Origin: Haliotis rufescens
Taxonomy: Eukaryota
Assembly (NCBI RefSeq): GCF_023055435.1
Contig: NW_025963779.1
Location: forward strand, 16,368,001 to 16,432,000
Length of the DNA stretch: 64,000 bases
Direction of reading: 5' to 3'
The notes beneath the pieces were generated by a model. The model saw nothing but the letters and a program-made list of their open reading frames with translations. It did no database searches and was not told where the DNA came from. Below, one piece after another: positions 30,771-64,000 of the stretch. Each line of letters starts with the position of its first letter. The stretch's first letter is position 1. Made by a program: the position numbers and the translations under genes.

Positions 30771-33700
30771 TATATATCAATTGGGGTCGACGACATGCAT
30801 CAACCACGTCAGCGAGTCTGACCACACGATCCCGTCAGTCGCCTCTTACGACAAGCATAGTCGCCTTTTACGGCAAGCATTGGTTGCTGAAGACCTATTC
30901 TACCCCGGATCTTAGCGGGTCAGGTCGAAAAGTAGCACGTCTCGCCTATCGACCCTACGTCTTACTTTCTGACCCACCTTCCCTCTTGTCACTGCTATCA
31001 CCGAAACACGATCGATTTCATGGCTACACAAAGCTGTTATCATTTGAAATGGTACAGTTAAATATAGATACCGCTTTACATACACATATCCTCAGCAAAG
31101 CAGTCATTACAATTCGATAACGGTATATTATTTTTCACTAGACTAGACTATTTTGACTAGATAGTTTTCTAAGGGTATCAAATTCCTCCTTTACCGGTTA
31201 TACGTGTTGTTGCCTTGATAGCCTGGGCTTACCACATACTTGAATAGGAGTTTCTCGGTGCACAATGCCGGTTGTCGTGTGTAAACACACCGACCTGAAT
31301 ATCGCCAAACATGCACACTCAGATAACATATGTGTCATCCAACAACAAAAGAAGCATGTGAATCTATTTGTGACGATATTCGTGTACATGCAGATCATGA
31401 TATACATGTTCGAGCAGATCAGCCTGCATGAGCCCTCGCCAACAGACGCTTTCAGTGACAGTGACGGTTCTCATTTTAAACTGATTTACTCAAATGTTTG
31501 TGTTTTGAAATAAAGATTACTTATTCCTGAATTTTCTACTACATATTCTACTATATGAAACCCAATATGCATAAAATGAATTAAATTTTACTTTTCAATA
31601 ATTCACGATTAGGAACATTGAGAAAACTGTCCAAATTCTGTAAAATCATCGTTCAGTTCAGATAAGGCTATGTCGACGTGTCGCTCTTACACTGTGAGCA
31701 CAATGCAAGTTTTAACATGTGTCGGGTTTATTTAAGTGACTGTCTGTGTTCGTTATTTAACGCCGCACATTGCACTATTCCAGCTCTGTGACGGCGGGCT
31801 ATTCATAATAAGAGTCTGGACAAGCGAAGCCAGTGATAAGGTATTATCATCAACGACCCACGCCGTTGGGGTGCGTTGACACGCTACCAACCAATTACCC
31901 GAGCCTGACCAACCGATCCATTGAGGAGTCATCTCTTGTGACCTATTGAAGTTCCTGGAGACCAAATCTTTGGTCCCGTTGGTCGATGCTTAATACAAGC
32001 ATAGTCGCCATTTACGGCAAGCATGGGCTGATGAAAACCTATTCTACCCCGGATCTTCACGGGTCCCTTATAGAACCTCGAAACAGAACCGTGTCGACTG
32101 AATACCAGGACGTTTAGCCCTAACAAGACTGTTTTCCATCTGGAATTAAGACTGGGTCAGACAGAGAATGTTACTATTGCCCCATGTTGTTGGTGTTTAA
32201 TGATGACAAAAATATCCTTTTTAAAACTTTCCAGTGCCAATCCTCCCAAACGTAAGCGCGTTGGTTTTACGCCGTTTGGGTGAGTATTGGAGTTATATCA
32301 CGGCAGGGCAGAATAATGGGGGTGAAGCCCGAAACCACATACGTCCTAACGTTCACCACTCCTGTGAAAACCTACGAGCTGTAGTACAGTGCCGATAGTG
32401 TCTTACAGTGTCTGGGTTATTTTCAAACAAGTTTAGCATTTGCAGGTAATTTTACAGCCTCAGAAATGAAGTTCAATTTCTACATCTTTGCGCAATTGTA
32501 CAGACGAATGTTTACCCCGTACCGGACACAATTCTCGCACCATGGTCATTTTTGAGAACCCATTAGGGAACCCTGATAGAGGATAGAACTGTGATGTTCT
32601 TTGGAATTACAGATTTTCTATAAATAACTCGGCATTTTATTGGTCGCCGGTACAACTTTTAATCTGTTCGTCCTTTCGTTCTTTCAGTCAAGCATGCACG
32701 TGCAGTTATAGAATGAAAACGAGAGTAGAGGTGATTTGCATATTGAAAAATGGCAACGAAAAACATTAATTGTAGACAATTTTTAGATTAAATAATGTCG
32801 TTCTGTGTAGATATGTGTGAGTGAGTGTGTAACGCCGTTTCGGTCAGCATTTCAGTTATCTCTGTGTATCAGTCTCGTGTGGGAGGAAACCCCGAAGTGA
32901 TGCAGGTCCTATAAATTTTACCACTTTGGTGAAACAAAACAGCACGTGTAAGGTGCTTACAAACCCAAGAAACATAATCAGGGTCAGCTTAATGTGTGAG
33001 GAAAGCCCGAAGTGATGCAGGTCTTAGACGTTTACCACTTCGGTGAAACCCACGAGCACGCGTATGGTGCTGACAAACCTAGAAACATAATCGGGGCGAA
33101 CCGGGATTCGAAACAACAATCATAGGTTTCTGGCGTGCCCAAGGGACGCAACTCTGCTGGAATTGGGACCCACGATCACACAGATGCTTTAATAAACTAT
33201 ACGCGCTCACTCACCCACATGTTCCAATTGCATGTATGATATGCCCTGTTTAAAATATAATGACGCCGTGATATAACTGGAATACTGTTAAAAGCGGCGT
33301 TAAACCCAACTCACCCACTTAAAATATAATGCTTTGGATTTCAATATATTTGTTTATTTTTATGTGATTCCTGTATATGAGCTTTAGGGGACATTAAGAA
33401 TATGACCTGTTGCGTACCTCTCGCGGAATTTACTGTGATCATAAGTTTGATGTGTTTCTAAGACGTCAGACAATCCACCACCATCAATCCATGTCCACGT
33501 GGACTGTTACACAAAGCATGAACCCTCCACGTGTGTGGAGAAAAAGTACAAAGTAACTTGGTTTACAATAAATACATTTATTTCAGCTCTTGGAAAACAA
33601 AATTCAAGTAATTCAAATAACAAACAACATAACAGTATCAGCAAAAGCATATATATATGACACAATACTTAATGAAATCATGAATGTTGTATTTACAAAA

Positions 33701-33956: not shown

Positions 33957-36900
33957 CTACATCTTGGGCGCCTCGTCCTCATCATCAAGCGTGATGACGT
34001 CGTCAGTGGCCTTGACGTTGCGCATTTCTTCTACGCAGGCTTCCATTGGCTCATCAGCCTCATTGTGACGGCGGCAGCGTCTGCGAGGGCACTGTGCCTG
34101 ACCATGACCTTCACCTCGAGGGTGACCCCTGAATCGACCTCTGCCGCCCTCTCTAGGGTCACCTCGTCCATCTTCCCATCCGGCAAAACCCATGTCGTTC
34201 CATGGTTCCATTTCACTGAAGTGTTCCCCTCGCCTCTTGCAACCTCCACGACCACAACGACCACCACGTCTCCCCCATCCTCTTCGTTTCCAACAACCTT
34301 CACCCCAGGCATAAGGATGCGTTCCCATCATGCCCCAGAACTGCATTGGGCCACCTGCAAACATACCAGGGTGGCCGAGAAATGGCGGGGGCATGTCCTC
34401 ATCCGAGGATCCGAAGATTCCATCCTCTTCGGTCTGGGAGTCTTCAACATGGTGTCGATCGTGATTATGACATTTTCGGCTTCCCTTCTTTCCTCTGCCA
34501 CACTTTCTCGCTCCTCTTTGGCCATCTGTCTTCATTTCTGTATCTGTCAAATACAAAAACAAGAATAGGGTCAAACCATACAGACCAAGGTAGAAGACAC
34601 AACCATCATGTATATGGGTTTACGCAATATCGCGGAGGGTGACACCAGAAATGGGCTTTGGACATTTGACCCATGTTGGGAACTGAATCAGGGACTTTGG
34701 TTTGACGAGCGAATGCTGTACCTGAACCGACAAGCCTACTCCGCCGCTACCCATTGGGAGTAACACAAAACCTTTAGTCAGTACTAGTTACGATTATTCT
34801 GAAGACATGGCTCACTGGACCACTGCCACGTAGCACTGATGAACTAATTTGTCTGACCGTCAAGATTGCATTGTTCTTACATTGCACGGACGTCGAACAA
34901 TGGTACTTTGGCCCATGCAGGGTACACATACACGATCATCTCGCCAACCTCGGTTATATCAAAACAGGGAAGAGGCGGTGGGATAGCCTACTGGTTAAAG
35001 CGACGGCTCGCCGTGTCAAAGAACTGGGTACCAAATGGGCAAAATGATTAACGCCCATGTTGGTGTCTCTTGCTATGGTGTAGCGACATAACTGTCTTTA
35101 CCAAAGTGGCAACCCATACTCAATCACTTCACACTCGGTCTACCTTGTCCCTCCAACTGTAGGAGACGGAAACTCAATCCACAGATAACATGGATCAACT
35201 TGTTTGTGTAAAGTGGACATTAGTGATTGTATGTTGTTGTAAGTGAGAGTGAGATAGGATACCTACCATTACCATCAGCAGTGCCCTCTCTGACCTCAGG
35301 TGCATCTTCCGTAGTTTTCGCTTGGGCGTCATTATCTGCTGTGTTGTCGGACTCTTCACCGGGAGTGGCCTCCCCTTCAGTCCTTGACTCATGGCACTGA
35401 TTCTTCTTCTTCCAGCGTTTCATGCGCTTCATCCATCGGTGAAAGTGAGGAGGGGCCATTCCTTCCATTGGCTGCAAAATTGTGTGTAAATTGATCACAT
35501 CCCGTGAGAAGGGTGCATGTTGAATAAATACAGGTACACGAGAAGATGGCACGGTGACTTCGGTCAAAATGATACTTCGCGGGTGTTTATTCGAGAGGTA
35601 TTCAATTTATGTTTAGGATTAGTCATGATTAATAACTAAAGGATTAGTCATGATTAATAGCAACTCACCATTCTGCCTGCACCTCGCATGCCACCCATTC
35701 TGCCCCACCCTCGGCCCCACCCTCGGCCCCACCCCTGCATCCTCGGGTCAAAGTCCCATTCATCCTCCTCGGATACGGCAGGAGAGACATCTGGCAAAAA
35801 AAGATCATTCATCAAAAGATTAGTTTGATATGGCAGTACTTTGACTCATTCTTCAAAGTATTACTATTGCCTATCATCATTATTATCATCATCAACAACA
35901 ACAAAAACAATACCAAAATCACCACAGTCATCAACAGTATCAAAGTAAAAAGAAATATCTGATCAACGTTTAAGCTGGGGCACGTACTGAATACAGAGAC
36001 ACTGAAGCCCCCATACAATCTCTACATACACATACGTTATTTAGTTGTACGCGAGTCTGTTGATTGTATTGATCATAAATATCAATACACAAGATCAGTT
36101 GCAGATGTCCCAGGCCGCCATTACCATCAGCAGTAAATCACGACTGTGTATTATATTTATATTGAACAGAAAAATGTTCGTTTGTACCTCGGATGTAGAT
36201 TCTGAGGACGGAATCCTTGACGGAAGAGAGGGCCTCATCCATCTCCTGTTCCGTGGAGCACGTCACAAAGTCGCCTTCACCATCTGAAACAATAGCTCGC
36301 TTTCGTTAGCTTACGTGTTAATAATGAACGTGAACTTTGAGTACGAATAAGGAACAGAAACTGCACACACATGCTGCGACAACTGTCGCGAACTCGAAAG
36401 ACAAGTGAGATGGTTAAAAATAGAATAAAAATAAAACGGTCGACTGACTACCCAGAAATGATATTAACTGAGACATTGTCTGACGCTTTATACAGTGAAA
36501 CCCCGTTAGTCTGGAAAACAAGCATTCCGGAGGATTTGGGATTAGAATGTGTACACATATTCAAAGGAGATAACTCATGGACTTGTTAATCCTACAATGG
36601 CGAAAACACGAGGAATGGAACCATTCGGATGAACGGGGCTTTGTCGACGTATACATCACACATGCATATCTATGTTATTGAAAACATAATCATGGGGAGA
36701 ATAATTTACGCATATATTTTCAAACCCATTTTCGTTACGCTAATTATTTCTGAAATATCAATTTAATGGTTTGTAAAGCATGTTTGTGATAGTAAGAGGA
36801 CTAACTAACTCCTTCGTCGGGCAGTTAATGGAAGACCTCGGGCTTCTGCAAATGATAATGCCCTGAAAAATAGCGTTACCCTTATAGTATCAATACAGGA

Positions 36901-37768
36901 ATTAAAATGTCTTTAAAAAAGTACAGAGAGTGAGTGAGTAATGTTTAACGAAACGGTATAAACAATATTCCCGATACATGAAACGGTCGGTAAATAATCG
37001 GGTCTGGACCAGACTAACAAGTTGTTGATATTATGAACACCCAACTCAGTAGGGGTAGATGACTTGAAAGAACCAAGTTGACCATTTAAAGGTATCATTA
37101 GGATACCGGAATAACAATCGCTTTGAACATTATACTGAATATGTGAGTGAATGTTGTTTCCCAACGCAATGAGTCGTCCCAAAGCATTATGGTTCAGTGT
37201 AGACTCAATGAAATACAGTAAAACCAACCCTGATATACTTCATAAATACATTCATGTCCAGTGACTGTTTTTTGTTTGTTAGTTGTTTAACGCCGCACTC
37301 AGCAATACTCCATCTATGGCGGCGGCCTGTACATAATCGAGTTTGGACCAGACAACCAGTGATCAATATTGTGAACAAAGCGCCACGCAATCGGGGTATG
37401 ATAACAATCAATCAGTAAAGTTATCGATCCTGACCACCCGATTCATTCAGTTGCCTCTTACGACCAGCATACGCTGCCTAGGGTTATATTCTAACCCTGA
37501 ATCCATCAGCAACTCTATACTGTTCATTATAATCATAGATGTTGTTATTATGAACACGATTAACACAAATACTTTCAAATAAACAGAAAAACTCACCTTT
37601 CCAGTACATGTTGAATGTCCCCGCCTCTAGTTGTTTGAACACCTGGGTCACCTTGTCGTGGACGAAGGTGTGTGTAGGGGCGGCGTCCTTAGGACCAGGG
37701 AAACGCCGGACCTCGGGTCTTCCTCTCCCCTCATGCTCATAAAACACTTTGACAACCACAGACTGCAT
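33957..37768 (-). CDS. PB1-domain protein A (SQSTM1/p62-derived, no ZZ/UBA), 5 exons, 393 aa
   Basis: Exons 37768-37597, 36283-36188, 35790-35669, 35471-35267 and 34543-33957 are all GT-AG and form an open 1182-nt frame. The N-terminus MQSVVVKVFY..PEVRRF..YWKDGEGDFVTCSTEQEMDEALSSVKDSVLRIYIR is a p62-type PB1. It is followed by GWGR repeats and an RG-rich tail. AATAAA lies at 33582-33577. Confidence 0.85.
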
Positions 37769-37899
37769 CGTGTTGTTCGGGCTGATTCTCAGTGACGATA
37801 AGTTTCAACAGGTGTTTGAATGTGAAATATCTTTTCAGCAGACGATAGAACTTCGATAGGCTTCTTTTTGTCTTGATTTCACGTCAGCAGGTAGCGGTA

Positions 37900-38120
37900 G
37901 AGTCGCTTGATTCTGTCAGCAAACCCAAACCCGGGCTTTTATACCCCATGTATGTTGTAATTTCTGGAAATAGAATCGAACGTTCGAAAACGTTCCGAGA
38001 ATGAGCTGGCACGTTTCAGACCGGTTGCATCAGGATCACGAGCGTCGATGAGTCATGGTAACGTGGATAGGACTTTCCGCGACACCTACGCATCGAAAAC
38101 GACAGTGACGTCACAATTTT
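37900..38120 (-). promoter_or_regulatory. Promoter of PB1 gene A: TATA, HSE, AP-1, kB-like, CRE
   Basis: TATAAAA at 37943-37937; HSE pentamers cGAAc gTTCg aAAAc gTTCc at 37977-37996 plus tTTCt gGAAa at 37961-37970; TGAGTCA at 38049-38055; AGGACTTTCC at 38069-38078; TGACGTCA at 38106-38113. Confidence 0.7.
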
Positions 38121-38379
38121 GGCTGAGTGCCAAGTAAATCAACTGGTCGTGGTATCCAACTGCCTTGTTATAAAAAGCAATTAAAACATTATCCGAGACA
38201 GATAAATGTGTGTTAATCAATCTGTTGACGCACCAGCATTATTTCAAACGTTTGCATTTAATGAACGTACATGTGTGTTGCTTTAAATGTGCATATATCT
38301 TCATGTAGATTTAAGTTGAGTGTTGGCTCAGAGCCAAGGAATGTGAACTGGTCCGGCCCAAGAACCATTCGGAACGGAG

Positions 38380-38570
38380 CTCGCACGTCACGTGACTTTG
38401 TCAATCGACCCGGGTCCCGTGATTCTCACGCAACCGGTCCGAAATAGTTTGAGACGGCCCGAAACCGGTCCGGAGAACGTTTCAGAACGGTTTGATTCTA
38501 TTAATAGTAATTGACATCACACATTTTCTGGTATATAAACCCCTAGTTTTACTGACAGAATCACTCCTCC
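38380..38570 (+). promoter_or_regulatory. Promoter of PB1 gene B: CLEAR/E-box, degenerate HSE, TATA, Inr
   Basis: Perfect GTCACGTGAC at 38387-38396; aGAAc gTTTc aGAAc at 38474-38488; TATATAAA at 38532-38539; Inr-like TCACTC at 38561-38566, about 30 bp after the TATA. Confidence 0.7.
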
Positions 38571-38744
38571 GGCACGCTCTATACAGCTATACTGAAGTTA
38601 CTACGCCAGCTGCTGAACAAAGACTCAATTGTCGTCTGCTAAAGAAATAAGACCGGTCTGAATAGCGAATACAGATTGCTACACTTGAGAATCCTTCAGT
38701 TCTCCCACTGCTGTACGACATTTCCTGTCCAGAGAAATCCCAAG

Positions 38745-41700
38745 ATGCAATCCTTGGTGATAAAGATGATTTATGAGCGGCAGGGCAACGCGACTCCTGA
38801 GATCCGACGTTTCCCTGTCCCCGATAACGCCGCCCTCAGTTACACCTTCATCAACGAGAAGGTGATGCAAGTGTTTCCACACCTTGATGCGGACACATTC
38901 ACACTGGGCTGGACAGGTATACCTTTTCCTCTTTATTACATAAATATACAACGTGGTCGTTGGACTAAGTTCGAAAAATAACGACTACTTTAAGGATTAA
39001 TTCGTAAAATATATACCTTTTTAACGTATGTCCAATTGGTCATTGGTTGGATGTATTTCGTCGTGTCATTACTGACATATGTTAATATATATTGGAGTAT
39101 TTTCTACTTAATGTTTAAATAAAACGCTTTGTAATCATCGCCATGAAAAACATGCAAATATTGTTTTCTTATATGTCCAATTTAGTTTTGTTATTGTGTG
39201 ATGATTTTAAGAGACAGTAGAACATTCTTAAAAACATACTGGTCGTATTTTCTTAACAGATGAAGATGGAGATTCAATAACTTTCTCCTCAGAGGAAGAG
39301 CTCAAAGAAGCTCTTAGCAGTGCCAATGATTCCGTTATGAAAATCGTCGTCAGAGGTGAGATGATTTCCTATTAACATAAAGAGCACAAAATCGATTTAT
39401 ATATTGCCTAGTGTGTTCAATTAATAGCTTCTAAGGAATCTTCGTTTTACTGTTTAATGTAAACTGTTCTTTAAAAAAAACTTGATATGTTCAAGTAACA
39501 ATGAAATGATGTCGGTGTGCGACTTCGTCTCTGAGCCTTCACGTTGAATAAGATAAATGCATAGATTATGTGAGCGGCAAAACGAACTAGCCCGTCTGCG
39601 CAGGGCCACATACCGAGAGTGTACACAGTGTGACCTGAATAGTGTCCCTGTATTGAGACTTGTTTCTGTGCCTGACAGAGCACGACGTGACAAATAGAGC
39701 TGAAGGAGTTACCTCCCTTGACGCTAATACTTGGCGCAGATCTCGTGTGTTTGGGAAAGGAGCAGATGCTGGAGGATACAGAATGATGGAGACGGTAAGT
39801 TCAGATATTTCTTTTGTAGTTAATAACCATATACTATTTTAGAAAAATGTTTTCTTGGCTTAATAAGCTCAACTATAAATCCTTTGCCATAAACAGGTCT
39901 GAACATAAATTTTATAGATCTTTCTCGTTCTGTTCATATACTTCGTATAATGTCAGTACTAAATTAACCCTAAATGTCATATAGAGTTTTTATTCAAAAT
40001 TAATCCATGACGTCGTTCTTCTTGTAGAAGGACGTTCAACCCCGTCACTCCAGACGTCTGATGAGAATGGCCAGGAAGATTCCACAACAGGGACGGGAAG
40101 ATGCTGGCCAAGTCGATGCCAATCCAACCCTTGTTGATGGACAAGTCACGAGAAACTACAGCAGTAAGTCATCTCCCAAGTTATGAATATTATTATAAAA
40201 TTAGTTGTTTGATAGGCAATTATTGTAAAATGAATTGTTTCATAGGCAATTATTGTAAAATAATATTGTTTGATAGGCAATTATTGTAAAATGAACTGTT
40301 TGATAGGCTATTATTGTAAAATGAATTGTTTGACAGGCAATTATTGTAAAATAATATTGTATGATAGGCAATTATTGTAAAATGAATTGTTTGACAGGCA
40401 ATTATTGTAAAATGAATTGTTTGATAGGCAATTATTGTAAAATGAATTGTTTGATAGCCAATTATTGTAAAATGAATTGTTTGATAGGCAATTATTGTAA
40501 AATAATATTGTATAATAGGCAATTATTGTAAAATTAATTGTTTGACAGGCAATTATTGTAAAATGAATTGTTTGATAGGCAATTATTGTCAAATGAATTG
40601 TTTGATAGGCAATTATTGTAAAATGAATTGTTTGATAGGCAATTATTGAAAAATAAATTCTTTGATAGACAATTTTTGTAAAATGAATTGTTAGATAGGC
40701 AATTATTATAAAAATGAATTGTTTGATAGGCAATTATTGTAAAATGAATTATGAGATAGGCAATTATTGTAAAATGACGAAAGAAGTTGTAAACGCGTTC
40801 TGTTGTCGGTGTCATTGATATCAATTTAGGATTGGTCATGTGGCGTTTCATATTTACGTGTATTTTCAAAATAGAAATGTATGATGGCTGAACTACGTCA
40901 TTTTCGATGGCATTTAATATTACTGATGATAAAACAGTGGTCAACTTACCAGGCAGAAAAACATGATGTCTGACGTCTGAAATTAGATAATACATGTTTT
41001 CCAGATTGTCCTGTTAAAGTAAGCTGCCATCTTGTTCCCCTGACTTCAGATGTACAGTCAGTCACATGTTATTTATTTCAGATGCAGGCGGATCCAGACG
41101 AGAGTTCTGTAGAAATGGTCGCCGATGGCAGTTGCAAGCATCCTGTGGGCACAATGGTGCTGGAGCTGGCCCTGTGACTGGCTGGCGTCATCGTCGACGT
41201 CAGCACATGTCAAACCCTACAGCCGATGAAGATACAGCTACGGAGCAGGGGACCCCAACGAGAGTCTGTGGGAGGCGACGCCAGAGAGAACTGGGCGGGC
41301 TCTGTCAGCGTGATGGGGCTGAAAGCGATGGTACATCTCCAAGGCCACGTTGGTGGAGGCGGGTGATGCAAGAAGAACGTCCCTGCCCGCAGAAGGAGAA
41401 TGTCATTGATGGTACGTCTCCTTCGAATTCCTGTGGGCAACGTTGGAGAAGGCGGGTGATACAAAAAGATGGTCGCCTCCAGCGTGACGAGACTACCGGG
41501 AAATGTGGAAGACCTTGGAGAAGGCGGATGATGACAGGACTCGAGTATCAGCGTGGTGATTCAACAGGAGACGATCTCTGTTTGAACCCACATTGGAGAT
41601 CAATGCAAGCAGGCCGGGCTTCAAGATACGCCATGGGTACTGAAGGTGTCACTATGCCTCTCTGGTATTATGGATGTCATGGAGCCAGGAAATCCTTCCC

Positions 41701-43009
41701 TGTTGGCTGCAGAGGATTTCAAGAATCCTGTAGTGATCGCGCTGGTCAAGACGGACCAGGTAGACGCACCATGGGCCACCATGAGGTCAGTGGGAAAAGG
41801 TGGCGTCGTACAAATGAGCCTCGTTTTGGAAGATGGTCCAGGCGAGATAGTAAGACTGAAGATGAACATTACATCAATAGCCACTGCACTGATAGCAGCT
41901 TTGCCAGCTGTCAGCGTCGTCGTGTTCGTTGCACGGGTGTCTCGGGAAACACGCCTGGATGTAAGTGTTCGAATGAGGAAAGCTGTCTGAACAAACGAGA
42001 CGTAAAGAATCTCCATAGATTTGAGAGTTGTCCTAAACGTCGCGTGAGATTAAGCGATGATGTGTCAGAGTCACACGATAAGAACACCAATGGCAGAGTG
42101 GAAACAACCCGTGGAAACAAATGGCAGAGAGCATTCGGACCTCACATCAGACGATGCATCCGTCGCCAGGGGAGGACGATGGAGGGAAGAGCCAACAGGG
42201 AAATCTCAGAAGATGTGATGCGTGGTCAAATGAATGACGTGATGCCAACATGCAATGAAGCGGGCTGTGACATGCAGAGAGGCAAAATGTGCAGGAGCCA
42301 CAGAAGAGGACCAACGTTCAGAACTCGTCGTCTTCGTATTGTAAGACGCATGCGTCGCTTGCGATACCTTCAAGGCCTTAAGGGATTTTATAAACACCCA
42401 TATCCAAGAATGCACGGACACAGAAGAAGACCGGTCTTGAAGACCTGCCGTCGTGGTCTTTGTCTTCATCTGAGTGGAACTGGAGCTAAAGTTGGAAGAG
42501 TATATGGATTTGGAGGTAAACGAGGTGGCTGCCACATTGGAATAGGCCAGCATCTGGCAGAGACAATCAACCGTCAAGTTACTTCATGTTATGCGTCAAA
42601 CTCTCACAAATTTAAAATGGGTGACAATGGAACAAACTGCAGAAATCATGAGAGGAAGAGTATTCATCACGTCATGGGCAGATCCTGGGGTCGTCAAAAG
42701 GCTTATCCTGGAGGGTCTGGAAAGGATGAAGGGGGATTGGCCTGTCAGATGAAGCACGCCTGTGACGGCCCTGAAGATGTTGGGACACAAACCCCTTTTA
42801 AGCTCACTTTCCATGAAATGAAGAGACTGTGCCTGATGAGAAGAATCCTTCAAAAGGAAAGAAAAAGGCAGTTCCGTATAAGACAGCTATTTGCCAGCCG
42901 CTGTGGACAAGGACAGTTGTCAAAGAGACCTGTGATGAAGGCGTGGGGAGGCAAGGCAAGCACCTGTACCCACGGTGGCGATAGGGTGTTGAGAATGGCC
43001 TATTTGTAA
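38745..43009 (+). CDS. PB1-domain protein B (SQSTM1/p62-derived) with long Arg/Gly/Cys-rich tail, 5 exons, 815 aa
   Basis: Exons 38745-38916, 39260-39355, 39679-39794, 40028-40163 and 41082-43009 are all GT-AG and form an open 2448-nt frame. PB1 reads MQSLVIKMIY..PEIRRF..WTDEDGDSITFSSEEELKEALSSANDSVMKIVVR. Exon 1/2 sizes (172, 96) and intron phases (1,1,0,1) equal those of gene A. The last exon is the 647-aa ORF of the track. Confidence 0.85.
40190..40776. repeat. 30/31-bp AT-rich minisatellite, about 19 units, in intron 4 of PB1 gene B
   Basis: GGCAATTATTGTAAAATGAATTGTTTGATA repeated head to tail. Confidence 0.96.
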
Positions 43010-45278
43010 GACACTAAAAAGCTTGCTACTATCCGTTGCAGAATGTAGTTACATACTGATGAAATCCTTGTCGATGACAGATGATTTTAGATGCTGAGGA
43101 ATCTATGGGAAGTATATGTTGTCCATTATATACGGTTTTGGTTACATTAAATACATAATTTATGTTGTCCATTATTTACGGGTTCGGTTACTATTTTATA
43201 TGTTGTCCATTACATACGGTTTTGGTTACATTAAATATATAATTTATGTTGTCCATTATATACGGGGTTGGCTAAGTTGTTTTCTTTCTGTACAGTGTGT
43301 GTGAAAAATGTGAACTTGGTGCTATCATGTAATATACAAATGATCATTTTGAATAAGAGTTATTTCGTCCCATTTGTTTCCGCTAGTTTTACATATTAAT
43401 GAAATTATCTAACGTCTTGTCATTTTGTGTTTCATATAAGTTAGTGATTATGATAATACAGATGCATATGGGTCAAGATATTATGTTTTTGACAGGTTTT
43501 TTATCATCTGTGTTCAGAATTAATACATACAGGTTAGGTTGGTTGAAACATAATTTTTGTAATAGGAACGTATTTGTGTTCATGTTATTAAAATGTTGGA
43601 CGTTTCATATAGTATAATTTTACTTATTTCTGAGCTGAGCATATTTCTGGAGTCTCAGCTGCACTCAGCAATGATGGCCTATATATACTACTCAAAATAT
43701 GTTAAAGAATATCCGATGTTTTCATATGACTATAGTTAGTCTGTCATGGCTGGCGGGTACTCCAACACACAGCCTTCCATTTGTGGGTGTTCTTTAACTT
43801 AGTTTGAGTCGTTTAAATGAAGCACTAATGAAATAGGGGAGCCAAGGTTCATTTTGATATTCGGCAAAAGTGTCAACAAAGACATTTTACTTAGTTGTAC
43901 GCGTTGTTGCTTTCGTCACAGTCAAACTAGTGGTTGAAAGCATGAGCCAAGAGCCACGCCGTAAGGCCATGGTGGCACACCACCGGCCAGATGAAACATT
44001 TTGCAATCACCTGATCCTCATTTTCGACTATTGTGATTAGCATGGTGAGCTGAGGATCTATTCTGACCCATAATCCAAGTAAGGGACCTGCCGCATTGAC
44101 ACACATGAACGAGTTTTACAAATGCATGCGATCAACTATACAGTTATATCACTACAGCCTTTACATACATGAGTCTAGAGTTAGTGAGTGAGCTGGGGTA
44201 AACGCCATTGTGAACAATGTTTCAGGGTTTTTTAGAGTGTCGCCACTGTTGAACTAATGTTGGAAGAGGACCAATAAGATGCAGACCCTAGATGTACTTT
44301 GGGGAAACCCAAGTGTACGGGTGTGGAAAGTCTGGAATCAAACCCACGATCATCGGATCATAGCATGTTTTAGGAAAGCACAGCCCTGCTCGGTCACCAG
44401 AAGAACTGCTGAGCCAACCATCCTCTCTGTCGGATTGCAGTGGCACACAATCAGTGAGGTTACAAGTTGTAACAAAGACTTCCGGAACATAAGAATGATT
44501 ATGTCCTTGGCTTGTACAATGAAAGACGGTGGGTTAGTCTGGTGGTTCAAGCGTTCTCTCGTCACACCGAAGGCCCGGTTTCGATTCCTCACAAGGGTAC
44601 ATTGTGTGAAGCCCATTTCTGCTGACGTCCTCCACTGTGCTATTGCTGGAATAGTGTTGACAACGGCGTAAAACCACACTCACTTACACTCACTCACTCA
44701 CTTACTCACAAGATGTCGTACACAAGTCACGAAGGTAGAGATCAGGTTAAATGTAGCAGGTATTTGCGGTACGTTTGTGGGGATGTGTGCGTCGGGATGG
44801 GCGTTTGAGGGGAGCCAATGTTCATTGTACTCAGGAGATTATCTAAATAAACGTATTAATTTAAAATTAATACATACAGGTTAGGTTGGTTGAAACATTA
44901 TTATTGTAACAGCAGCGTATTTTTGTTCATGTTATTAAAATGTTGTGAAGTGTCATAACGTATAATTTTACTTATTTCTGAGCTGAACATTTTTTTTCTG
45001 GAGTCTCACCTGCACTCAGCAATGATACCTTATGTATACTACTCAAAATATGTTAAAGAATATCCGATGTTTACATATGACTATAGTTAATCTGTCATGG
45101 CTGGCGTGTACTCCAACACACAGCCTTCCATTTGTGGGTGTTCTTTAACTTAGTTTGAGTCGTATAAATGGAACGTGGACGTGGGTCGGGGTGGGTGTTC
45201 GAGGTGAGCAAAGGGGATGTACGCGTCGGGATGGGTGTTTGAGGGGAGCCAATGTTCATTGTACTCAGGAGATTACCT

Positions 45279-45441
45279 GACTGACTGAGTATGGTTTTAC
45301 GCCGATTTTAGCAATATTCCAGCAATATCACGGCGGGGGACACCAGAAATGGGCCTCACACATTGTACCCATGTCGGGAATCGAACCCGGGTCTTCGGCG
45401 TGACGAGCGAACGCTTTAACCACTAGGCTACCCGACCGCCC
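45279..45441 (-). mobile_element. tRNA-derived SINE, family 1
   Basis: TSD CAGGAGATTACCT at 45266-45278 and 45442-45454. The site is empty in the inverted duplicate near 59855. Confidence 0.9.
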
Positions 45442-46795
45442 CAGGAGATTACCTAAATAAACGTATTCGTGTATGTACATCGAGATTTACACCAACCAAT
45501 CAGTATCATGAAATTACTTTAATCAACATGCACATGACAAAGTATACAAGCAGGTACATATAAGCATCTAGCTACATCGCATTCTGTGGTAAAATCAGAA
45601 CTTCACATATTAAAAATACAGCATAAACACTACATTATTATGAACTTTTCTATTGATGAAGAAATAACAACGTCAAAAGCGTTATCAAAAATGATTTTGA
45701 AACCAATTATATGCCTCTAGTTAATCACACGCGTTAAAAGCGTTATCGAAAAAGATGTTTCAATGATTTTGAAAACAATTATATGCCTCAAAAAGTCCTA
45801 AGTCACTTATTAGGAACAAAAGTAGAACACTTGTTTTTTAATGTGACAACAACAATAAATCATCAAACAAAAATATCTACTACGCATGTTCAGATTCAAA
45901 ACCTATTATACCTCATTTATTTCAGATTCTAGAGCAGAATCGATGCTCATGATGTTAATCATTGGATTGTTTGTTTGTTTGTTACGACAAGCATTGTCTC
46001 TTTTTACGGCAAGCATGGGCTGTTGAAAAACTAACCCATTCTAACCCGAATCTTCAGGGTAAATATATTGCCGAGTGCTGCGTTAAACAACAAACAAACA
46101 AACAAAAGGAGAAACATTATTGCATGCGTTTTCATAATCATTTGGCAATAGCGCTACACCTTATCACAAAATGTATCGTCGATATGAGCAGTGTTTCGGT
46201 TACAATAACGACCTTGCGTGTCAGCTTGATGTGGGAGGAAAACCCGAAGTGATGCAGGTTTTGGACGTTTACCACTTTGGAGGGACCGAGGATCACGGGT
46301 GTGGTGCTGACAAACCTAGAAACAGAATCAGGGTCAACCTAAGAATCAAACCCATGATCACAGATTTCAGGCACGGCATAGATGACGAGACCACCCATGC
46401 CTCCTGTCACAAAATTTACATATAGTATTAGGTCAGTAATACTATTTGTCAGGGCAGATGATTTTTAATTCAATTCAATTATGGGTATTGAATTCAAGGC
46501 CAATGGCCAACATACAGTTTTAACACACAAAAACTGAAAAGGCAAAGGAAGTACAGCTGTAAATTGGCAATTTGTCTCTTTTTTTATAAAAATAATAATA
46601 CTTTTTACAGAATTTCATTAATTTCATACAACAGTTGTTCGCTTTTCACACATCAGATTCGAAAATGATTCGAAAGTACCGTTATCCAATATTTCTTTTG
46701 GGTTTCTTTCATAGCTCTTTATACAATGGACAAATGTTCATGAAACCTGATCTATTAGGTTCGGGCCAGAAGTACATGTTTTCCTTGCTGTACCG

Positions 46796-59421: not shown

Positions 59422-61123
59422 CGATGGGGTTGGTTGTCGGACTGTATCATAGTTCTGCTTGTGTTTGTTTGTTTGTTGTTTAAAGCAGCACTCAGCAATG
59501 TTGTACCCCTGAAGTCCCAGGTTAGAATAGTTTTTCAACAACCCATGCTTGCCGTAAAATGAGACAATGCTTGTAACAAAAAAACAAGTGATCTAGATCT
59601 AGATCTTTCAAAATCATTTTCGATAATGCTTTTGTCGTTGTTATTTCTTTATCAATAGAAACGTTCATAATATTGTAGTGTTTATGCTAGTTTTTTAATA
59701 TGTGAAATTCTGATTTTACCGCAGAATGCGATGTAGCCAGATGCTTATATGTACCTGCTTGTATACTTTGTCATGTGCATGTTGATTAAAGTAATTTCAT
59801 GATACTGATTGGTTGGTGTAAATCTCGATGTACATACACGAATCCGTCTATTTAGGTAATCTGCTGAGTACAATGAACATTGGCTCCCCTCAAACACCCA
59901 TCCCGACGCACACATCCCCACAAACGTACCGCAAATACCTACTGCATTTAACCTGATCTCTACCTCCGTGACTTGTGTACGACATCTTGTGAGTAAGTGA
60001 GTGAGTGAGTGTGAGTGAGTGTGGTTTTACGCCGTTGTTAACACTATTCCAGCAATAGCACGGTGGAGGACGTCAGCAGAAATGGGCTTCACACAATGTA
60101 CCCTTGTGAGGAATCGAAACCGGGCCTTCGGTGTGACGAGAGAACGCTTGAATCACCAGACTAACCCACCGTCCTTCATTGTACAAGCCAAGGACATAAT
60201 TATTCTTATGTTACCACCTCTGGGATTCCGGAAGTCTTTGTTACAACTTGTAACCTCACTGATTGTGTGTGCCACTGTAATCCGACAGAGAGGATGGTTG
60301 GCTCAGCAGTTCTTCTGGTGGCCGGGCAGGGCTGTGCTTTCCTAAAACATGCTATGATCCGATGATCGTGGGTTTGAATTCCAGACTTTCCACACCCGTA
60401 CACTTGGGTTTCCCCAAAGTACATCTAGGGTCTGAATCTCATTGGTCCTCTTCCAACATTAGGTCAACAGTGGCGACACTCTAAAAAACCCTGAAACATT
60501 GTTCACAGTGGCGTTAACCCCAGCTCACTCACTAACTCCAGACTCATGTATGTTAAGGCTGTAGTGATATAACTGTATAGTTGATCGCATGCATTTGTAA
60601 AACTCGTTCATGTGTGTCAATGCGGCAGGTCCCTTACTGGGATTATGGGTCAGAATAGATCATCAGCTCCCCATGCTAATCACAATAGTCGAAAATGAGG
60701 ATCAGGTGATTACACATCCCCTTTGCTCACCTCAAACAAACACCCTACGGCGTGGCTCTTGGCTCATGCTATCAACCACTAGTTTGACTGTGACGTAAGC
60801 AACAACGCGTACAACTAAGTAAAATTCCTTTGTTGACACTAATTTGACACTAAAAATAAAACTTGGCGCCCCCATTTCATTAAGGCTCCATTTATACGAC
60901 TCAAACTAAGTTAAAGAACACCAACATATGAAAGGCTGTGTGTTGAAGTACCCGCCAGCCATGACAGATTAACTATAGTCATATGAAAACATCGGATATT
61001 CTTTAACATATTTTGAGTAGTATACATAAGCTATCATTGCTGAGTGCAGCTGAGACTCCAGAAAAATGTTCAGCTCAGAAATAAGTAAAATTATACGTTA
61101 TGACGCTTCACTACATTTTAATA

Positions 61124-61411
61124 GTGAGTGAGTGAGTTGGGTTTAACGCCGCTTTTAACACTCAGTATTCCAGTTATATCGCGGCGTGTCAGCTTAATGT
61201 GGGAGGAAAGCCCGATGTGATGCAGGTCTCAGACGTTTATCACTTCGGTGAAACCCACGAGCACGGGTATGGTGCTGACAAACCTAGAAACAAAATCGGG
61301 GCGAACCGGGATTCGAACCCACAATCATAGGTTTCTGGCGTGTCCAAGGGACGCAACTCTGCACAGCGAATCGCGGCGCCTTAGACGACTGGGCCACCCG
61401 TGCCCCCTACA
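61124..61411 (-). mobile_element. tRNA-derived SINE, family 2
   Basis: TSD ACATTTTAATA at 61113-61123 and 61412-61422. Absent from the homologous sites near 43590 and 44935. Confidence 0.88.
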
Positions 61412-61706
61412 ACATTTTAATAACATGAACAAAAATACGCTGCTATTACAATAATAATGTTTCAACCAACCTAACCTGTATGTATTAATTTTAAACACAG
61501 ATGATTAAAAACCTGTCAAAAACATAATATCTTGACACATATGCATCTGTATTATGACAATCTCTAACTTATATGAAACACATGTAAAAAGACGTTAGAT
61601 AATTTCGTTATGTCAAACAAGCGGAAACAAATTCGACGATCCTTGAAAATAACATGATAGCACCTAGTTCACATTTTTCACACATACTGTACAGAAAGAC
61701 AATAAC

Positions 61707-63446
61707 TTAATCAACCCAGATATAAAGGAAAGTGAGCCTCAAAGGCGTTTGTGCCCCAATATCTTCAGGGCCGTCACAGGCGTGCTTCATCTGACAGGTC
61801 AATCTCCCTTCATCCTTTCCAGAGAAGGTGTTCACCCTTCTGCCAAACCCTCTAGGACAAGCCATTTGACGACCCAAGGATCTGCTAATGACACGACGAA
61901 TACCCTCCCTATTATAGTTTGTGCTATTGTCTCCCATGATGAATTTGTCAGGGTTTGAAGCATAACATGATGTGACTTGATTGTTGATTGCCTCTACCAC
62001 AGGCTTGCTCATTCCAAAGTGGTTGTCACCTCGGTGACCTCCAAATCCATATATTCTTCCGACTTTGGTTCCAGTTTCACGCAGATGAAGACGAAGACCA
62101 CGGCGACAGGTCTTCAAGACAGGTCTTCTCCTGTGTCCGTGCATTCTTGGACATGGGTGTTTGTGAAATCTGTTAAGGCCTTGGAGGTATCGCAAGCGAC
62201 GCACGCGTCTTATAGTACGTCGACGATGAATTCTAAACGTAGGTCCTCTTCTGTGGCTTCTGCACATTTTGCCTCTCTGCATGTCACAGCCCGCTTCATT
62301 GCATTTTGGCATCACTTCATTAATTTGACCACGCACTCAATACTTTTGGTTATTTCCGAGGTACATAGAAAGGGACTTCCTGGGAAACCTGTCGAATTCA
62401 AAATTTGAAGCTTCATCTTCCGAGGTTTCCCTGTTGTCTCTTCCCTCCATCGTCCTCGACTGGCGACGTCGAATGTGGGGTCCGAATACTCTCTGCCATT
62501 TGTTTCCATGCGTGGCTCTGTCATTGCTGTTCTTATCGTGTGACTCTGACACATCATCGCTTAATCTCACGCGACGGTTAGGACAACTCTAATATCTATG
62601 GAGATTCTTTACATCACGTTTGTTAAGACATCATCCCTCATTCGAACGCTAACATCCAGGCATGTTTCCCGAGACATTCGTGCAACGTACACGACGACGC
62701 TGACAGCTGGCAAAGCTGTTATCAGCGCAGTGGCTCTTGGTGTAATGTTCATCTTCAGTCTTATTATCTCGCCTGGACCATCCTCCAAAACAAGGCTCAT
62801 TTGTACGACGCCACCTTTTCCCACTGACCGCATGGTGGCCCATGGTGCGTCTACCTGGTCCCTCTTGACCAGCTCGATCACTACAGGATGCTTGAAATCC
62901 TCTGCAGCCAGCAAGGAAGGATTTCCTGGCTCCATGACATCCATAATACCAGAGAGGCATAGTGACACCTTCAGTACCCCTGGCGTATCTTGAAGCCCGG
63001 CCTGCTTGAATTGATCACAAATGTGGGTTCAAACAGAGATCGTCTTGTGAGGAATTACTACACTGATGCTCGAGACCTGTCATCATCCGCCTTCTCCAAG
63101 GTCTTCCACATTTCCTGGTAGTCTCATCACGCTTGAAGCGACCATCTTTTTGTATCACCCGTCTTCTCCAACGTTGCCCACAGGAATTCGAAGGAGACGT
63201 ACCATCACTGACATTCTCCTTCTGCAGGCAGTGACGTTCAACTTGCATCACTCGCCTTCCCCTACGTCCCCTACAATCGCTACCTGGAGACGTACAATCG
63301 CTTTCAGCCCCATCACGCTGACAGAGCCCGCCCAGTTCTCTCAGGCGTCGCGTCCCACAGACTCTCGTTGGGGTCACATGCTCCGTAGCTGTATCTTCAT
63401 CAGCTGTAGGGTTTGACCTGTGCCGACGACGACGATGACGCCAGCC
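61707..63446 (-). pseudogene. Pseudogenised copy of PB1 gene B exon 5
   Basis: Homologous peptide in a single frame with stops at 63015, 62649, about 62589 and 62337. The 5' end is replaced by a LINE fragment, and about 440 bp (42813-43255 equivalent) including the stop codon is deleted. Confidence 0.88.
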
Positions 63447-63453
63447 GGGCATG

Positions 63454-64000
63454 ATGATTGACACATTGTACAAAAACACGCCAACCCCGCCAGAGCCGCG
63501 CTTAGCTAATTTGTTAATACTTTTTCTGATGTTACCAAACCACTTGTAGTTATCTAAATGAAGTACATTATTCCCACGCAAGAAAGTTTCACATATACTA
63601 GTATATAGCTGTATTTTGTTATATTTTTACGAAAATTACTATTTTCGTGATCTAAAAGGTACCACTACAACACTAACGTAGCTTGTTTCAATTTTTGCCA
63701 ATCTGTCTTCAAACTGTATTAAGTTTGATTTAAATTCTGATCTAATATTGTCCATTTCAACCTCAACCGTGCTACTGATTAAGGAAGCAGTCTTCTCTGA
63801 CAATGATATTTCTAATCGCCTCTCTAAGCTGTCCATCCGATGGACGAAAGACTGATTCAAACTCGCGATCTCGGATTTCACAGTGTCAAACATGCGACGC
63901 ATTAAATCGAGAAGTTCGTCATCTCTTCTCACCTTTTATGTGAATCATTGAAACCTTGTTCTGTGAGAGGTCTCTTTCTTGAGTGTCCATCACAGGATCA
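63454..64000 (-). mobile_element. Inverted copy of the LINE 5' relic at 57530-58273
   Basis: Near-identical reverse complement that lacks the SINE insertion. Runs off the window edge. Confidence 0.8.

What the first reader, a model, noticed from the sequence alone, without database searches (positions are those of the whole stretch)
37820..38650. Bidirectional promoter built from an ancient inverted duplication and loaded with proteotoxic-stress elements
Seen: the reverse complement of 37900-38040 aligns block by block with 38418-38565. The blocks are CGTGATcCTgAtGCAACCGGTCtGAAA vs CGTGATtCTcAcGCAACCGGTCcGAAA; GAACGTTTtcGAACGtTcGATTCTATT vs GAACGTTTcaGAACGgTttGATTCTATT; both TATA boxes; CTGACAGAATCA in both; and TCGTCTGCT in both 5' leaders. 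The introns and protein tails do not align by eye, so these blocks are phylogenetic footprints. The region holds HSE arrays, a perfect CLEAR palindrome GTCACGTGAC, a CRE, an AP-1 site and a kB-like site. Established: vertebrate SQSTM1 is induced via HSF1, TFEB, AP-1 and NF-kB. Inference: the pair kept p62-like stress wiring, gene A has the stronger HSE, and the conserved GCAACCGGTC block is an unassigned element.
Basis: partly seen in the sequence, partly recalled or inferred. Interest (0 to 1): 0.7.

Follow-up and report, generated by a model that had tools for sequence, protein, structure and literature searches.

The report
Twin p62-derived stress promoters in abalone
Two back-to-back abalone genes, stripped-down copies of the autophagy receptor p62, each carry a mirror-image copy of the same p62-type promoter, conserved under selection, which likely switches them on in heat or protein-folding stress like paired small heat-shock genes.

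Summary
The two upstream regions align as inverted copies (score 97; shuffles 26±4, max 41), and the similarity runs on into both first exons. The genes are spliced abalone p62/SQSTM1 derivatives (815 and 393 aa) that keep PB1 but lack ZZ, LIR and UBA. The same motif order (E-box, CGTGAT block, AACCGGTC, HSE, TATA) lies upstream of an intact p62 gene elsewhere in the genome, so the wiring was inherited from a p62-type ancestor. The whole pair was duplicated again 41 kb away; between the two pairs the promoter cores changed at 2.8% of sites, against 7.9% in the spacer and 10–11% in introns. Heat induction and start sites are untested. The architecture resembles the worm hsp-16 pairs.

The parts
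33957..37768 (-). Gene B: 5 coding exons (37768-37597, 36283-36188, 35790-35669, 35471-35267, 34543-33957), 393 aa; PB1 plus G/R/E/D-rich tail; no ZZ, LIR or UBA
   Evidence: Open spliced frame; all 4 introns seen as GT-AG joints in run contigs; orthologues P0006 and P0008 hit PB1 only; no LIR-like motif in 4 B-type records
37837..37845 (-). TCGTCTGCT block in gene B 5' leader
   Evidence: Aligned with gene A leader; also in the leader of an intact p62 paralog
37908..37919 (-). CTGACAGAATCA block, 25-35 nt downstream of TATA; predicted start-site region of gene B
   Evidence: Position seen in sequence; contig 5' ends at 37924, 37900 and 37881 are only a weak hint
37937..37943 (-). TATA box of gene B
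37957..37995 (.). Gene B heat-shock elements: 4 units with 1 mismatch (37978-37995) plus 3 units with 1 mismatch (37957-37969)
   Evidence: the only 4-unit hits in 94 kb are this one and its copy in the second pair; same grade as in 3 of 4 intronless hsp70 promoters
38014..38040 (-). Conserved CGTGAT block with Grainyhead-type AACCGGTC (38019-38026) and an overlapping TGATGCAAC (ATF4/CEBP-like, motif recalled, on this side only)
38049..38065 (-). AP-1 site (38049-38055) and E-box position (38060-38065; one base off CACGTG in this assembly, intact in the second pair and in contigs of 3 runs)
   Evidence: same AP-1/E-box pair upstream of intact p62
38066..38379 (.). Spacer between the two core promoters; holds the non-canonical kB-like 9-mer (38070-38078) and a CRE (38106-38113); evolves faster than the cores
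   Evidence: 25 of 318 sites differ from the second pair in 38061-38379; no inverted self-similarity
38387..38396 (.). CLEAR/E-box palindrome GTCACGTGAC upstream of gene A
   Evidence: positional homologue in intact p62 promoter
38418..38470 (+). Conserved CGTGAT block and two AACCGGTC copies (38432-38439, 38463-38470)
   Evidence: the first copy carries a substitution at 38437 in another organism, with no listed change in the second core
38475..38487 (.). Gene A heat-shock element, 3 units with 1 mismatch
38532..38563 (+). Gene A TATA box (38532-38538) and CTGACAGAATCA block (38552-38563; predicted start-site region)
38632..38640 (+). TCGTCTGCT block in gene A 5' leader
38745..43009 (+). Gene A: 5 coding exons (38745-38916, 39260-39355, 39679-39794, 40028-40163, 41082-43009), 815 aa; PB1 plus Arg/Gly/Cys-rich tail, net charge +73; no ZZ, LIR or UBA
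   Evidence: exon 5 is 100% identical to the 815-aa record P0001, uncharacterized LOC124149577 [Haliotis rufescens]; PB1 only; introns 1 and 3 seen spliced

Best explanation
The interval holds two separate, outward-facing TATA promoters that are mirror copies of one p62/SQSTM1-type promoter, made when a p62-derived gene was duplicated head to head, and each likely drives heat- or proteotoxic-stress transcription of its own gene. Shown: inverted paralogy running into the PB1 exons; the same motif order upstream of an intact p62 paralog; lower substitution rates in both cores than in the spacer and introns; spliced transcripts of both genes. Inferred: HSF binds the HSE 35-60 nt upstream of each TATA; a Grainyhead/CP2-family factor binds AACCGGTC and likely opens the promoter in epithelia; a TFEB/MITF-type factor likely binds the E-box; transcription likely starts in the CTGACAGAATCA blocks, about 650 bp apart. 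Co-regulation would come mainly from copied elements, not from one shared element. The products keep the p62 polymerisation domain but have lost the ubiquitin- and LC3-binding parts, so they are predicted to be stress-induced PB1 scaffolds or modulators of p62 bodies rather than autophagy receptors.
For: Inverted similarity 97 vs 26±3.7. A and B form one clade in 4 abalone species, support 95/91, dS(A,B) 0.91-1.09 over the four cross pairs. Core identity is 115 of 153 aligned bases (75%) against about 45% expected at that distance. The upstream region of intact p62 (G000:C583:32489359; P0009 has PB1+ZZ+UBA) aligns with A at 52 and B at 59, with 0 of 200 shuffles reaching either; none of 6 comparisons of A or B with hsp70 promoters does. 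B keeps the exon phases and the exon-3 ending of that p62 gene and the PPHF.RWMKR motif. Second pair at G000:C1:16447864/16449018: cores 10 of 351 sites changed, spacer 25 of 318 (p=0.005), first introns 160 of 1548 (p=1e-6). AACCGGTY has 8 hits in 94 kb, all inside the two intergenic regions; two CP2-family loci exist in the genome; the Ddc Grainyhead site contains AACCGGTC (PMC7471608 passage). HSE grade matches 3 of 4 intronless hsp70 promoters. Splice joints in run contigs. Literature: p62 expression is regulated by HSF1 (PMC10531041 passage); worm sqst-1 is heat inducible (PMC5316864 passages); snail and mussel sequestosome-1 rises with HSPs under toxic stress (PMC6936870 passages).
Against: No heat, starvation or infection data were seen, and no start site was mapped. 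Contigs of 4 of 6 RNA-type runs cover sequence upstream of the TATA boxes (X1 spans the whole interval; X6, X12 and X14 in part), which could be DNA, upstream transcripts or other start sites. Both HSEs have a mismatch, and gene A's has only 3 units. AACCGGTY next to an HSE-like word is not enriched genome-wide (22 hits, 5 at p62-family promoters; reversed control 84) and is absent from 4 of 4 hsp70 promoters. One AACCGGTC copy is substituted in another organism. The PB1 tree does not place A/B beside the p62 whose promoter they share (long branches, 93 columns). One review passage reports lower p62 levels in heat-stressed mussels, read there as autophagic turnover (PMC12838483). The 5' leaders are as conserved as the cores (3 of 131, 3 of 174), so local gene conversion between the two pairs is not excluded.
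Confidence: 0.65

Rival explanations
1. A true shared bidirectional promoter: the elements of both halves and the central CRE act on both genes as one unit.
For: Predicted starts lie about 650 bp apart; HSE, CLEAR, CRE and AP-1 sites are palindromic; in worm hsp-16.2/41 a common 394-bp region with two HSEs drives both genes (PMC3587839 passages); the CRE is kept in the second pair; run contigs cross the interval.
Against: Each half has its own full set of elements in the order seen in the one-directional p62 promoter; the spacer changes about three times faster than the cores.
Confidence: 0.15
2. The promoters are conserved but mainly constitutive or epithelial (Grainyhead, E-box, AP-1 driven); the HSE-like words contribute little to heat induction.
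For: Spliced transcripts occur in runs of several studies with unknown treatment; oyster SQSTM1 is constitutively expressed in all tissues tested (PMC7595595 passages); AACCGGTC is the most over-represented word tested.
Against: The HSE keeps its spacing in A, B, both copies and intact p62; at most 1 unlisted change could fall in it in each of two other organisms; it matches hsp70 HSE grade.
Confidence: 0.15
3. Neutral leftovers of a duplication, or homogenisation by gene conversion, with no current function.
For: Inverted paralogs can convert each other; the low divergence between the two pairs also covers the leaders.
Against: A/B introns no longer align while the cores do; blocks are shared with a p62 gene on another contig at dS 2.4-3.2; both frames are open and PB1 dN is below dS.
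Confidence: 0.04
4. Terminal inverted repeats of a transposon inserted between the genes.
For: The window is rich in dispersed repeats with inverted copies.
Against: Similarity continues into both coding exons; a DNA search of the genome found 2 matches, this locus and the second pair (a lower bound).
Confidence: 0.01

Closest known systems
C. elegans hsp-16.2/hsp-16.41 divergent pair (PMC3587839, passages read)
   Same: Two related stress genes head to head; short common region (394 bp) with two HSEs plus an extra element of unknown ligand; a further cluster of four related genes exists.
   Different: There the products are small heat-shock proteins and HSF-1 dependence is shown. Here they are PB1-only p62 derivatives, the extra element is Grainyhead-like, and induction is untested.
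p62/SQSTM1 (sequestosome-1, Ref(2)P) genes; three intact paralogs on G000:C583
   Same: PB1 most similar to p62 structures (9 of 9 PDB sequences hit); same phases of introns 1-4; PPHF.RWMKR motif in B; G/R-rich exon 5; promoter blocks shared with one paralog and leader block with another.
   Different: No ZZ, no LIR-like motif, no UBA exon; expanded low-complexity tail, strongly basic in A; head-to-head arrangement.
Drosophila hsp70 87A7 inverted pair (recalled, not checked in a call)
   Same: Inverted duplicate stress genes, each with its own HSE and TATA.
   Different: Those copies are near-identical; A and B have diverged to about 52% PB1 exon-1 identity and tails that no longer align at DNA level.
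Vertebrate bidirectional promoters (definition recalled: starts under 1 kb apart, GC-rich, TATA-poor, unrelated genes)
   Same: Divergent genes with predicted starts about 650 bp apart; CpG observed/expected 1.17 vs 0.85 for the window.
   Different: 44% GC, a TATA box on each side, and the two genes are paralogs.
Grainyhead/CP2 binding sites (PMC7471608, passage read)
   Same: AACCGGTC is the core of the Ddc site and fits the last 8 positions of (T/C)NAAC(C/T)GGT(T/C).
   Different: The first position of the 10-mer is not met in the three window copies; binding is untested.

Membership tests
Head-to-head paralogous heat-shock gene pair (hsp-16 type) | Two paralogs transcribed divergently from a short interval | tested here: met
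   976 bp ATG to ATG; one clade; spliced transcripts
Head-to-head paralogous heat-shock gene pair (hsp-16 type) | HSE of 3 or more units near each TATA | tested here: met
   4 units/1 mismatch (B) and 3 units/1 mismatch (A); comparable to hsp70 promoters
Head-to-head paralogous heat-shock gene pair (hsp-16 type) | HSF-dependent induction by heat | not testable with these tools
   Runs were contigs without treatment labels
Classical bidirectional promoter | Start sites under 1 kb apart | tested here: inconclusive
   Predicted about 650 bp from TATA positions; contigs cannot show starts, and some cross the interval
Classical bidirectional promoter | GC-rich, TATA-poor, unrelated genes (criteria recalled) | tested here: not met
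   44% GC, two TATA boxes, paralogs
Classical bidirectional promoter | Shared elements needed for both directions | not testable with these tools
   Needs dual reporters
p62/SQSTM1 autophagy receptor | N-terminal PB1 of p62 type | tested here: met
   PF00564 above cut-off in P0001, P0006, P0008; PDB hits all sequestosome-1, acidic motif aligned
p62/SQSTM1 autophagy receptor | ZZ zinc finger | tested here: not met
   No PF00569; no remnant in 94 kb, best E 0.9
p62/SQSTM1 autophagy receptor | LIR motif | tested here: not met
   Acidic-flanked W/F/Y-x-x-L/I/V in 0 of 8 A/B records; found in 2 of 3 intact p62 records by the same rule
p62/SQSTM1 autophagy receptor | C-terminal UBA | tested here: not met
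   No PF16577; no remnant in 94 kb, best E 0.85
Grainyhead/CP2 target site | AAC(C/T)GGT(T/C) core | tested here: met
   3 copies in the interval, 1 upstream of intact p62; consensus from PMC7471608
Grainyhead/CP2 target site | Binding by the factor | not testable with these tools
   CP2-family genes exist in the genome; binding needs EMSA or ChIP
NF-kB site | GGGRNNYYCC (recalled) and conservation | tested here: not met
   0 canonical hits in the interval; 38071 differs in the second pair

The most novel reading that the evidence does not exclude
Abalones turned p62 into a new class of heat-shock gene: HSF- and Grainyhead-driven, PB1-only proteins that co-polymerise with p62 filaments but replace ubiquitin and LC3 binding with a cationic Arg/Gly/Cys tail, acting as stress-induced decoys or as receptors for RNA or microbial polyanions in epithelia.
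Probability: 0.25. Interest if true: 0.72.

Novelty: new variant of a known kind. Interest (0 to 1): 0.45.

Why it matters
It is a natural experiment in promoter evolution: five homologous p62-type promoters in one genome (A, B, their two copies and an intact p62) at three depths of divergence single out the same few elements, including a Grainyhead-type site that none of the four hsp70 promoters has. If induction holds, abalones have an undescribed lineage-specific heat-stress gene family built from a truncated autophagy receptor, directly testable in existing heat-stress RNA-seq and relevant to thermal tolerance in a farmed genus. The promoter architecture itself has known precedents.

Tried and rejected
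Transposon inverted repeats: rejected. Pfam on single exons found nothing (4 of 4 pieces) because PB1 is split over two exons; full proteins hit it. AACCGGTY plus HSE as a general abalone heat-shock module: not supported; of the 17 other hits, 5 were fetched and showed no recognisable gene by ORF listing, and one more lies upstream of an intron-containing hsp70-family gene without an HSE. A site-by-site footprint test gave 4 of 328 vs 36 of 646 (p=0.0009), but I do not rely on it: sites changed in this copy drop out of the footprint class by construction. No RNA holder is on record as RNA. One miRNA run laid 0 reads, which is no test. Contig depths were not used to rank genes. In the tree exon 1 of two C583 paralogs ran 3 nt into the intron, adding one residue each; no rows were dropped. 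No structure or complex prediction was run, since a PB1-PB1 pass would follow from likeness to solved p62 filaments. Literature: searches for Haliotis/abalone with sequestosome, SQSTM1, p62 or PB1 and for four locus ids showed no paper on these genes in the listings; main text only, so supplementary gene lists of abalone heat-stress studies were not seen and may hold them. TFEB, AP-1 and NF-kB control of vertebrate SQSTM1 was not verified in a paper (recalled).

Full report
Observation. The inverted similarity is real. Aligning 38231-38744 with the reverse complement of 37770-38230 scores 97, against 26.1±3.7 (max 41) for 500 dinucleotide shuffles and max 45 for 492 other window stretches; with coding sequence included the alignment runs through both first exons. 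Introns 1-3 and exons 3-5 of the two genes do not align above shuffles at DNA level. All named motifs are present, but with unequal weight: CLEAR 10-mer 2 of 1000 shuffles, AACCGGTY (3 hits) 0 of 1000, 3-unit HSE hits 2 of 300, CRE 44 of 1000, AP-1 188 of 1000, and no canonical kB site. These tests are post hoc and the halves are not independent.

The genes. Gene A (plus, ATG 38745) gives 815 aa and gene B (minus, ATG 37768) 393 aa over five exons each. Exon 5 of A is 100% identical to an 815-aa record named uncharacterized LOC124149577 [Haliotis rufescens]. Contigs of runs guessed to be RNA show B introns 1 and 2 spliced in 3 of 4 runs, intron 3 in 2 of 4 and intron 4 in 4 of 4, and A intron 1 in 3 of 4; two further organisms show exon 1 joined to exon 2 for both genes. 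P0001, P0006 and P0008 hit only PB1, whereas P0009 has PB1, ZZ and UBA. All 9 PDB sequences hit by A, and by B's second copy, are p62 PB1, with the acidic motif aligned. No ZZ or UBA remnant lies in 94 kb, and an LIR-like motif is absent from 8 of 8 A/B records. No tail relative outside abalones appeared.

Family context. A search of the genome with A's first exon gave 7 matches: A, B, a second inverted copy of the whole pair 41 kb away (about 91% identical), and three genes on C583, where ZZ and UBA exons lie downstream (3 ZZ and 2 UBA motifs within the fetched stretches). B shares intron phases, the end of exon 3, the PPHF.RWMKR motif and a G/R-rich exon 5 with the intact gene at C583:32489359. 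A PB1 tree of 34 rows makes the 11 A and B rows one clade (95/91), each type spanning four species; dS(A,B) is about 1.0 and dS to the intact gene 2.4-3.2. The tree does not place A/B next to that gene; branches are long and only 93 columns were used. Inference: one p62 copy lost ZZ and UBA, was duplicated head to head before these species split, and the pair was copied again recently (dS 0.05-0.08).

Where the blocks come from. The upstream region of the intact gene carries the same series: E-box, AP-1, CGTGAT block, AACCGGTC, 4-unit HSE and a TATA with the same flanks, though about 130 bp further from the HSE. It aligns with A at 52 and with B at 59 (0 of 200 shuffles each). Of the other two p62 promoters, only one aligns weakly with A through the leader block (37; 2 of 200), and hsp70 promoters do not align.

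Selection. A/B core identity is 115 of 153 aligned bases, against about 45% expected at dS 1. Between the two pairs, using region limits set before the differences were seen, cores differ at 10 of 351 sites, the spacer at 25 of 318 (p=0.005) and first introns at 10-11% (cores vs introns p=1e-6). Leaders are equally conserved, so gene conversion is not fully excluded. In other organisms, B's core 37948-38036 has at most 1 change (X12), while A's CGTGAT block has 3 listed changes, one inside the first AACCGGTC, and the HSE and TATA have none listed (X14; 11 of 12 differences listed). The one-base defect in B's E-box at 38060 is absent from the second pair and from contigs of three runs.

What the elements are. 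HSE: B has 4 units with 1 mismatch plus a second 3-unit site, A has 3 units; 3 of 4 intronless hsp70 loci (two are near-identical) have a 4-unit site of the same grade, and 3 of 4 have a CRE nearby. AACCGGTC: all 8 AACCGGTY hits in 94 kb fall in the two intergenic regions; a review passage gives the Grainyhead motif AACCGGTT, a Ddc site containing AACCGGTC and the motif (T/C)NAAC(C/T)GGT(T/C) (PMC7471608); CP2-family genes are present. It is absent from 4 of 4 hsp70 promoters and the pairing with an HSE is not enriched genome-wide, so it looks specific to this p62 lineage. The kB-like site is the weakest: non-canonical and changed in the second pair.

How it likely works. Each half is a complete promoter pointing at its own gene, with predicted starts in the CTGACAGAATCA blocks about 650 bp apart. 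HSF would give stress induction, a Grainyhead-type factor epithelial competence, and an E-box factor lysosomal or starvation input; all three steps are inferred. Contig 5' ends for B at 37924, 37900 and 37881 fit this weakly, but contigs of 4 of 6 RNA-type runs extend upstream of a TATA box, so other starts, upstream transcripts or DNA are possible. I put this reading at 0.65, a shared bidirectional unit at 0.15, a mainly constitutive promoter at 0.15, and neutral or transposon origins at 0.05 together.

Comparison and novelty. The closest system is the worm hsp-16.2/41 pair: divergent paralogs, a 394-bp common region, two HSEs and an extra element (PMC3587839, passages). Heat or HSF control of p62 has precedent (passages of PMC10531041, PMC5316864 and PMC6936870); oyster SQSTM1 is also constitutive (PMC7595595, passages). 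The region fails the recalled GC-rich, TATA-poor criteria of classical bidirectional promoters, and the proteins fail p62 receptor membership. Searches found no paper on these genes (listings only, supplements not seen), and the scan's own notes held nothing relevant. Verdict: a new variant of a known kind; interest 0.45, rising to about 0.7 if the products prove to be heat-induced modulators of p62 bodies.

Noticed in passing
G000:C1:16439600-16453400 (L008-L010), beyond the window: Second, inverted copy of the whole A/B locus, about 87-94% identical by segment; its PB1 exons and last exons are open, and a spliced contig of run X1 matches this copy's differences.
   Followed up: yes
window 59600-63630, minus strand: Third, partial copy of gene A: exon 5 and downstream DNA only, in two separate open frames of about 200 aa; no PB1 exons found beside it.
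   Followed up: partly
G000:C583:6919900-6939900 and 32484500-32489400: Three p62 genes with PB1 and ZZ (UBA seen for two within the fetched stretches); one promoter carries E-boxes, a CRE and an AP-1 site but no AACCGGTC, suggesting divided regulation among paralogs.
   Followed up: partly
window 40189-40777: Tandem array of about 30-bp units inside intron 4 of gene A, shorter in the second copy.
   Followed up: no
window 33957-34010, minus strand: Gene B ends in a hydrophobic stretch flanked by acidic residues that resembles a SUMO-interacting motif (motif recalled); it is less regular in H. asinina.
   Followed up: no
window 40028-40030: Tandem NAG acceptor at exon 4 of gene A; orthologue P0003 lacks one residue at this junction.
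   Followed up: no
protein P0010: An H. asinina record joins a p62-type PB1 to PF04218 and PF03221 domains (CENP-B/Tc5 transposase type, names recalled); may be a fusion or an annotation artefact.
   Followed up: no
window 32800-33330, 37270-37470, 44527-44700, 45278-45445: Several dispersed SINE-like repeats of 150-200 bp with many copies in the window and very high depth in run contigs.
   Followed up: no
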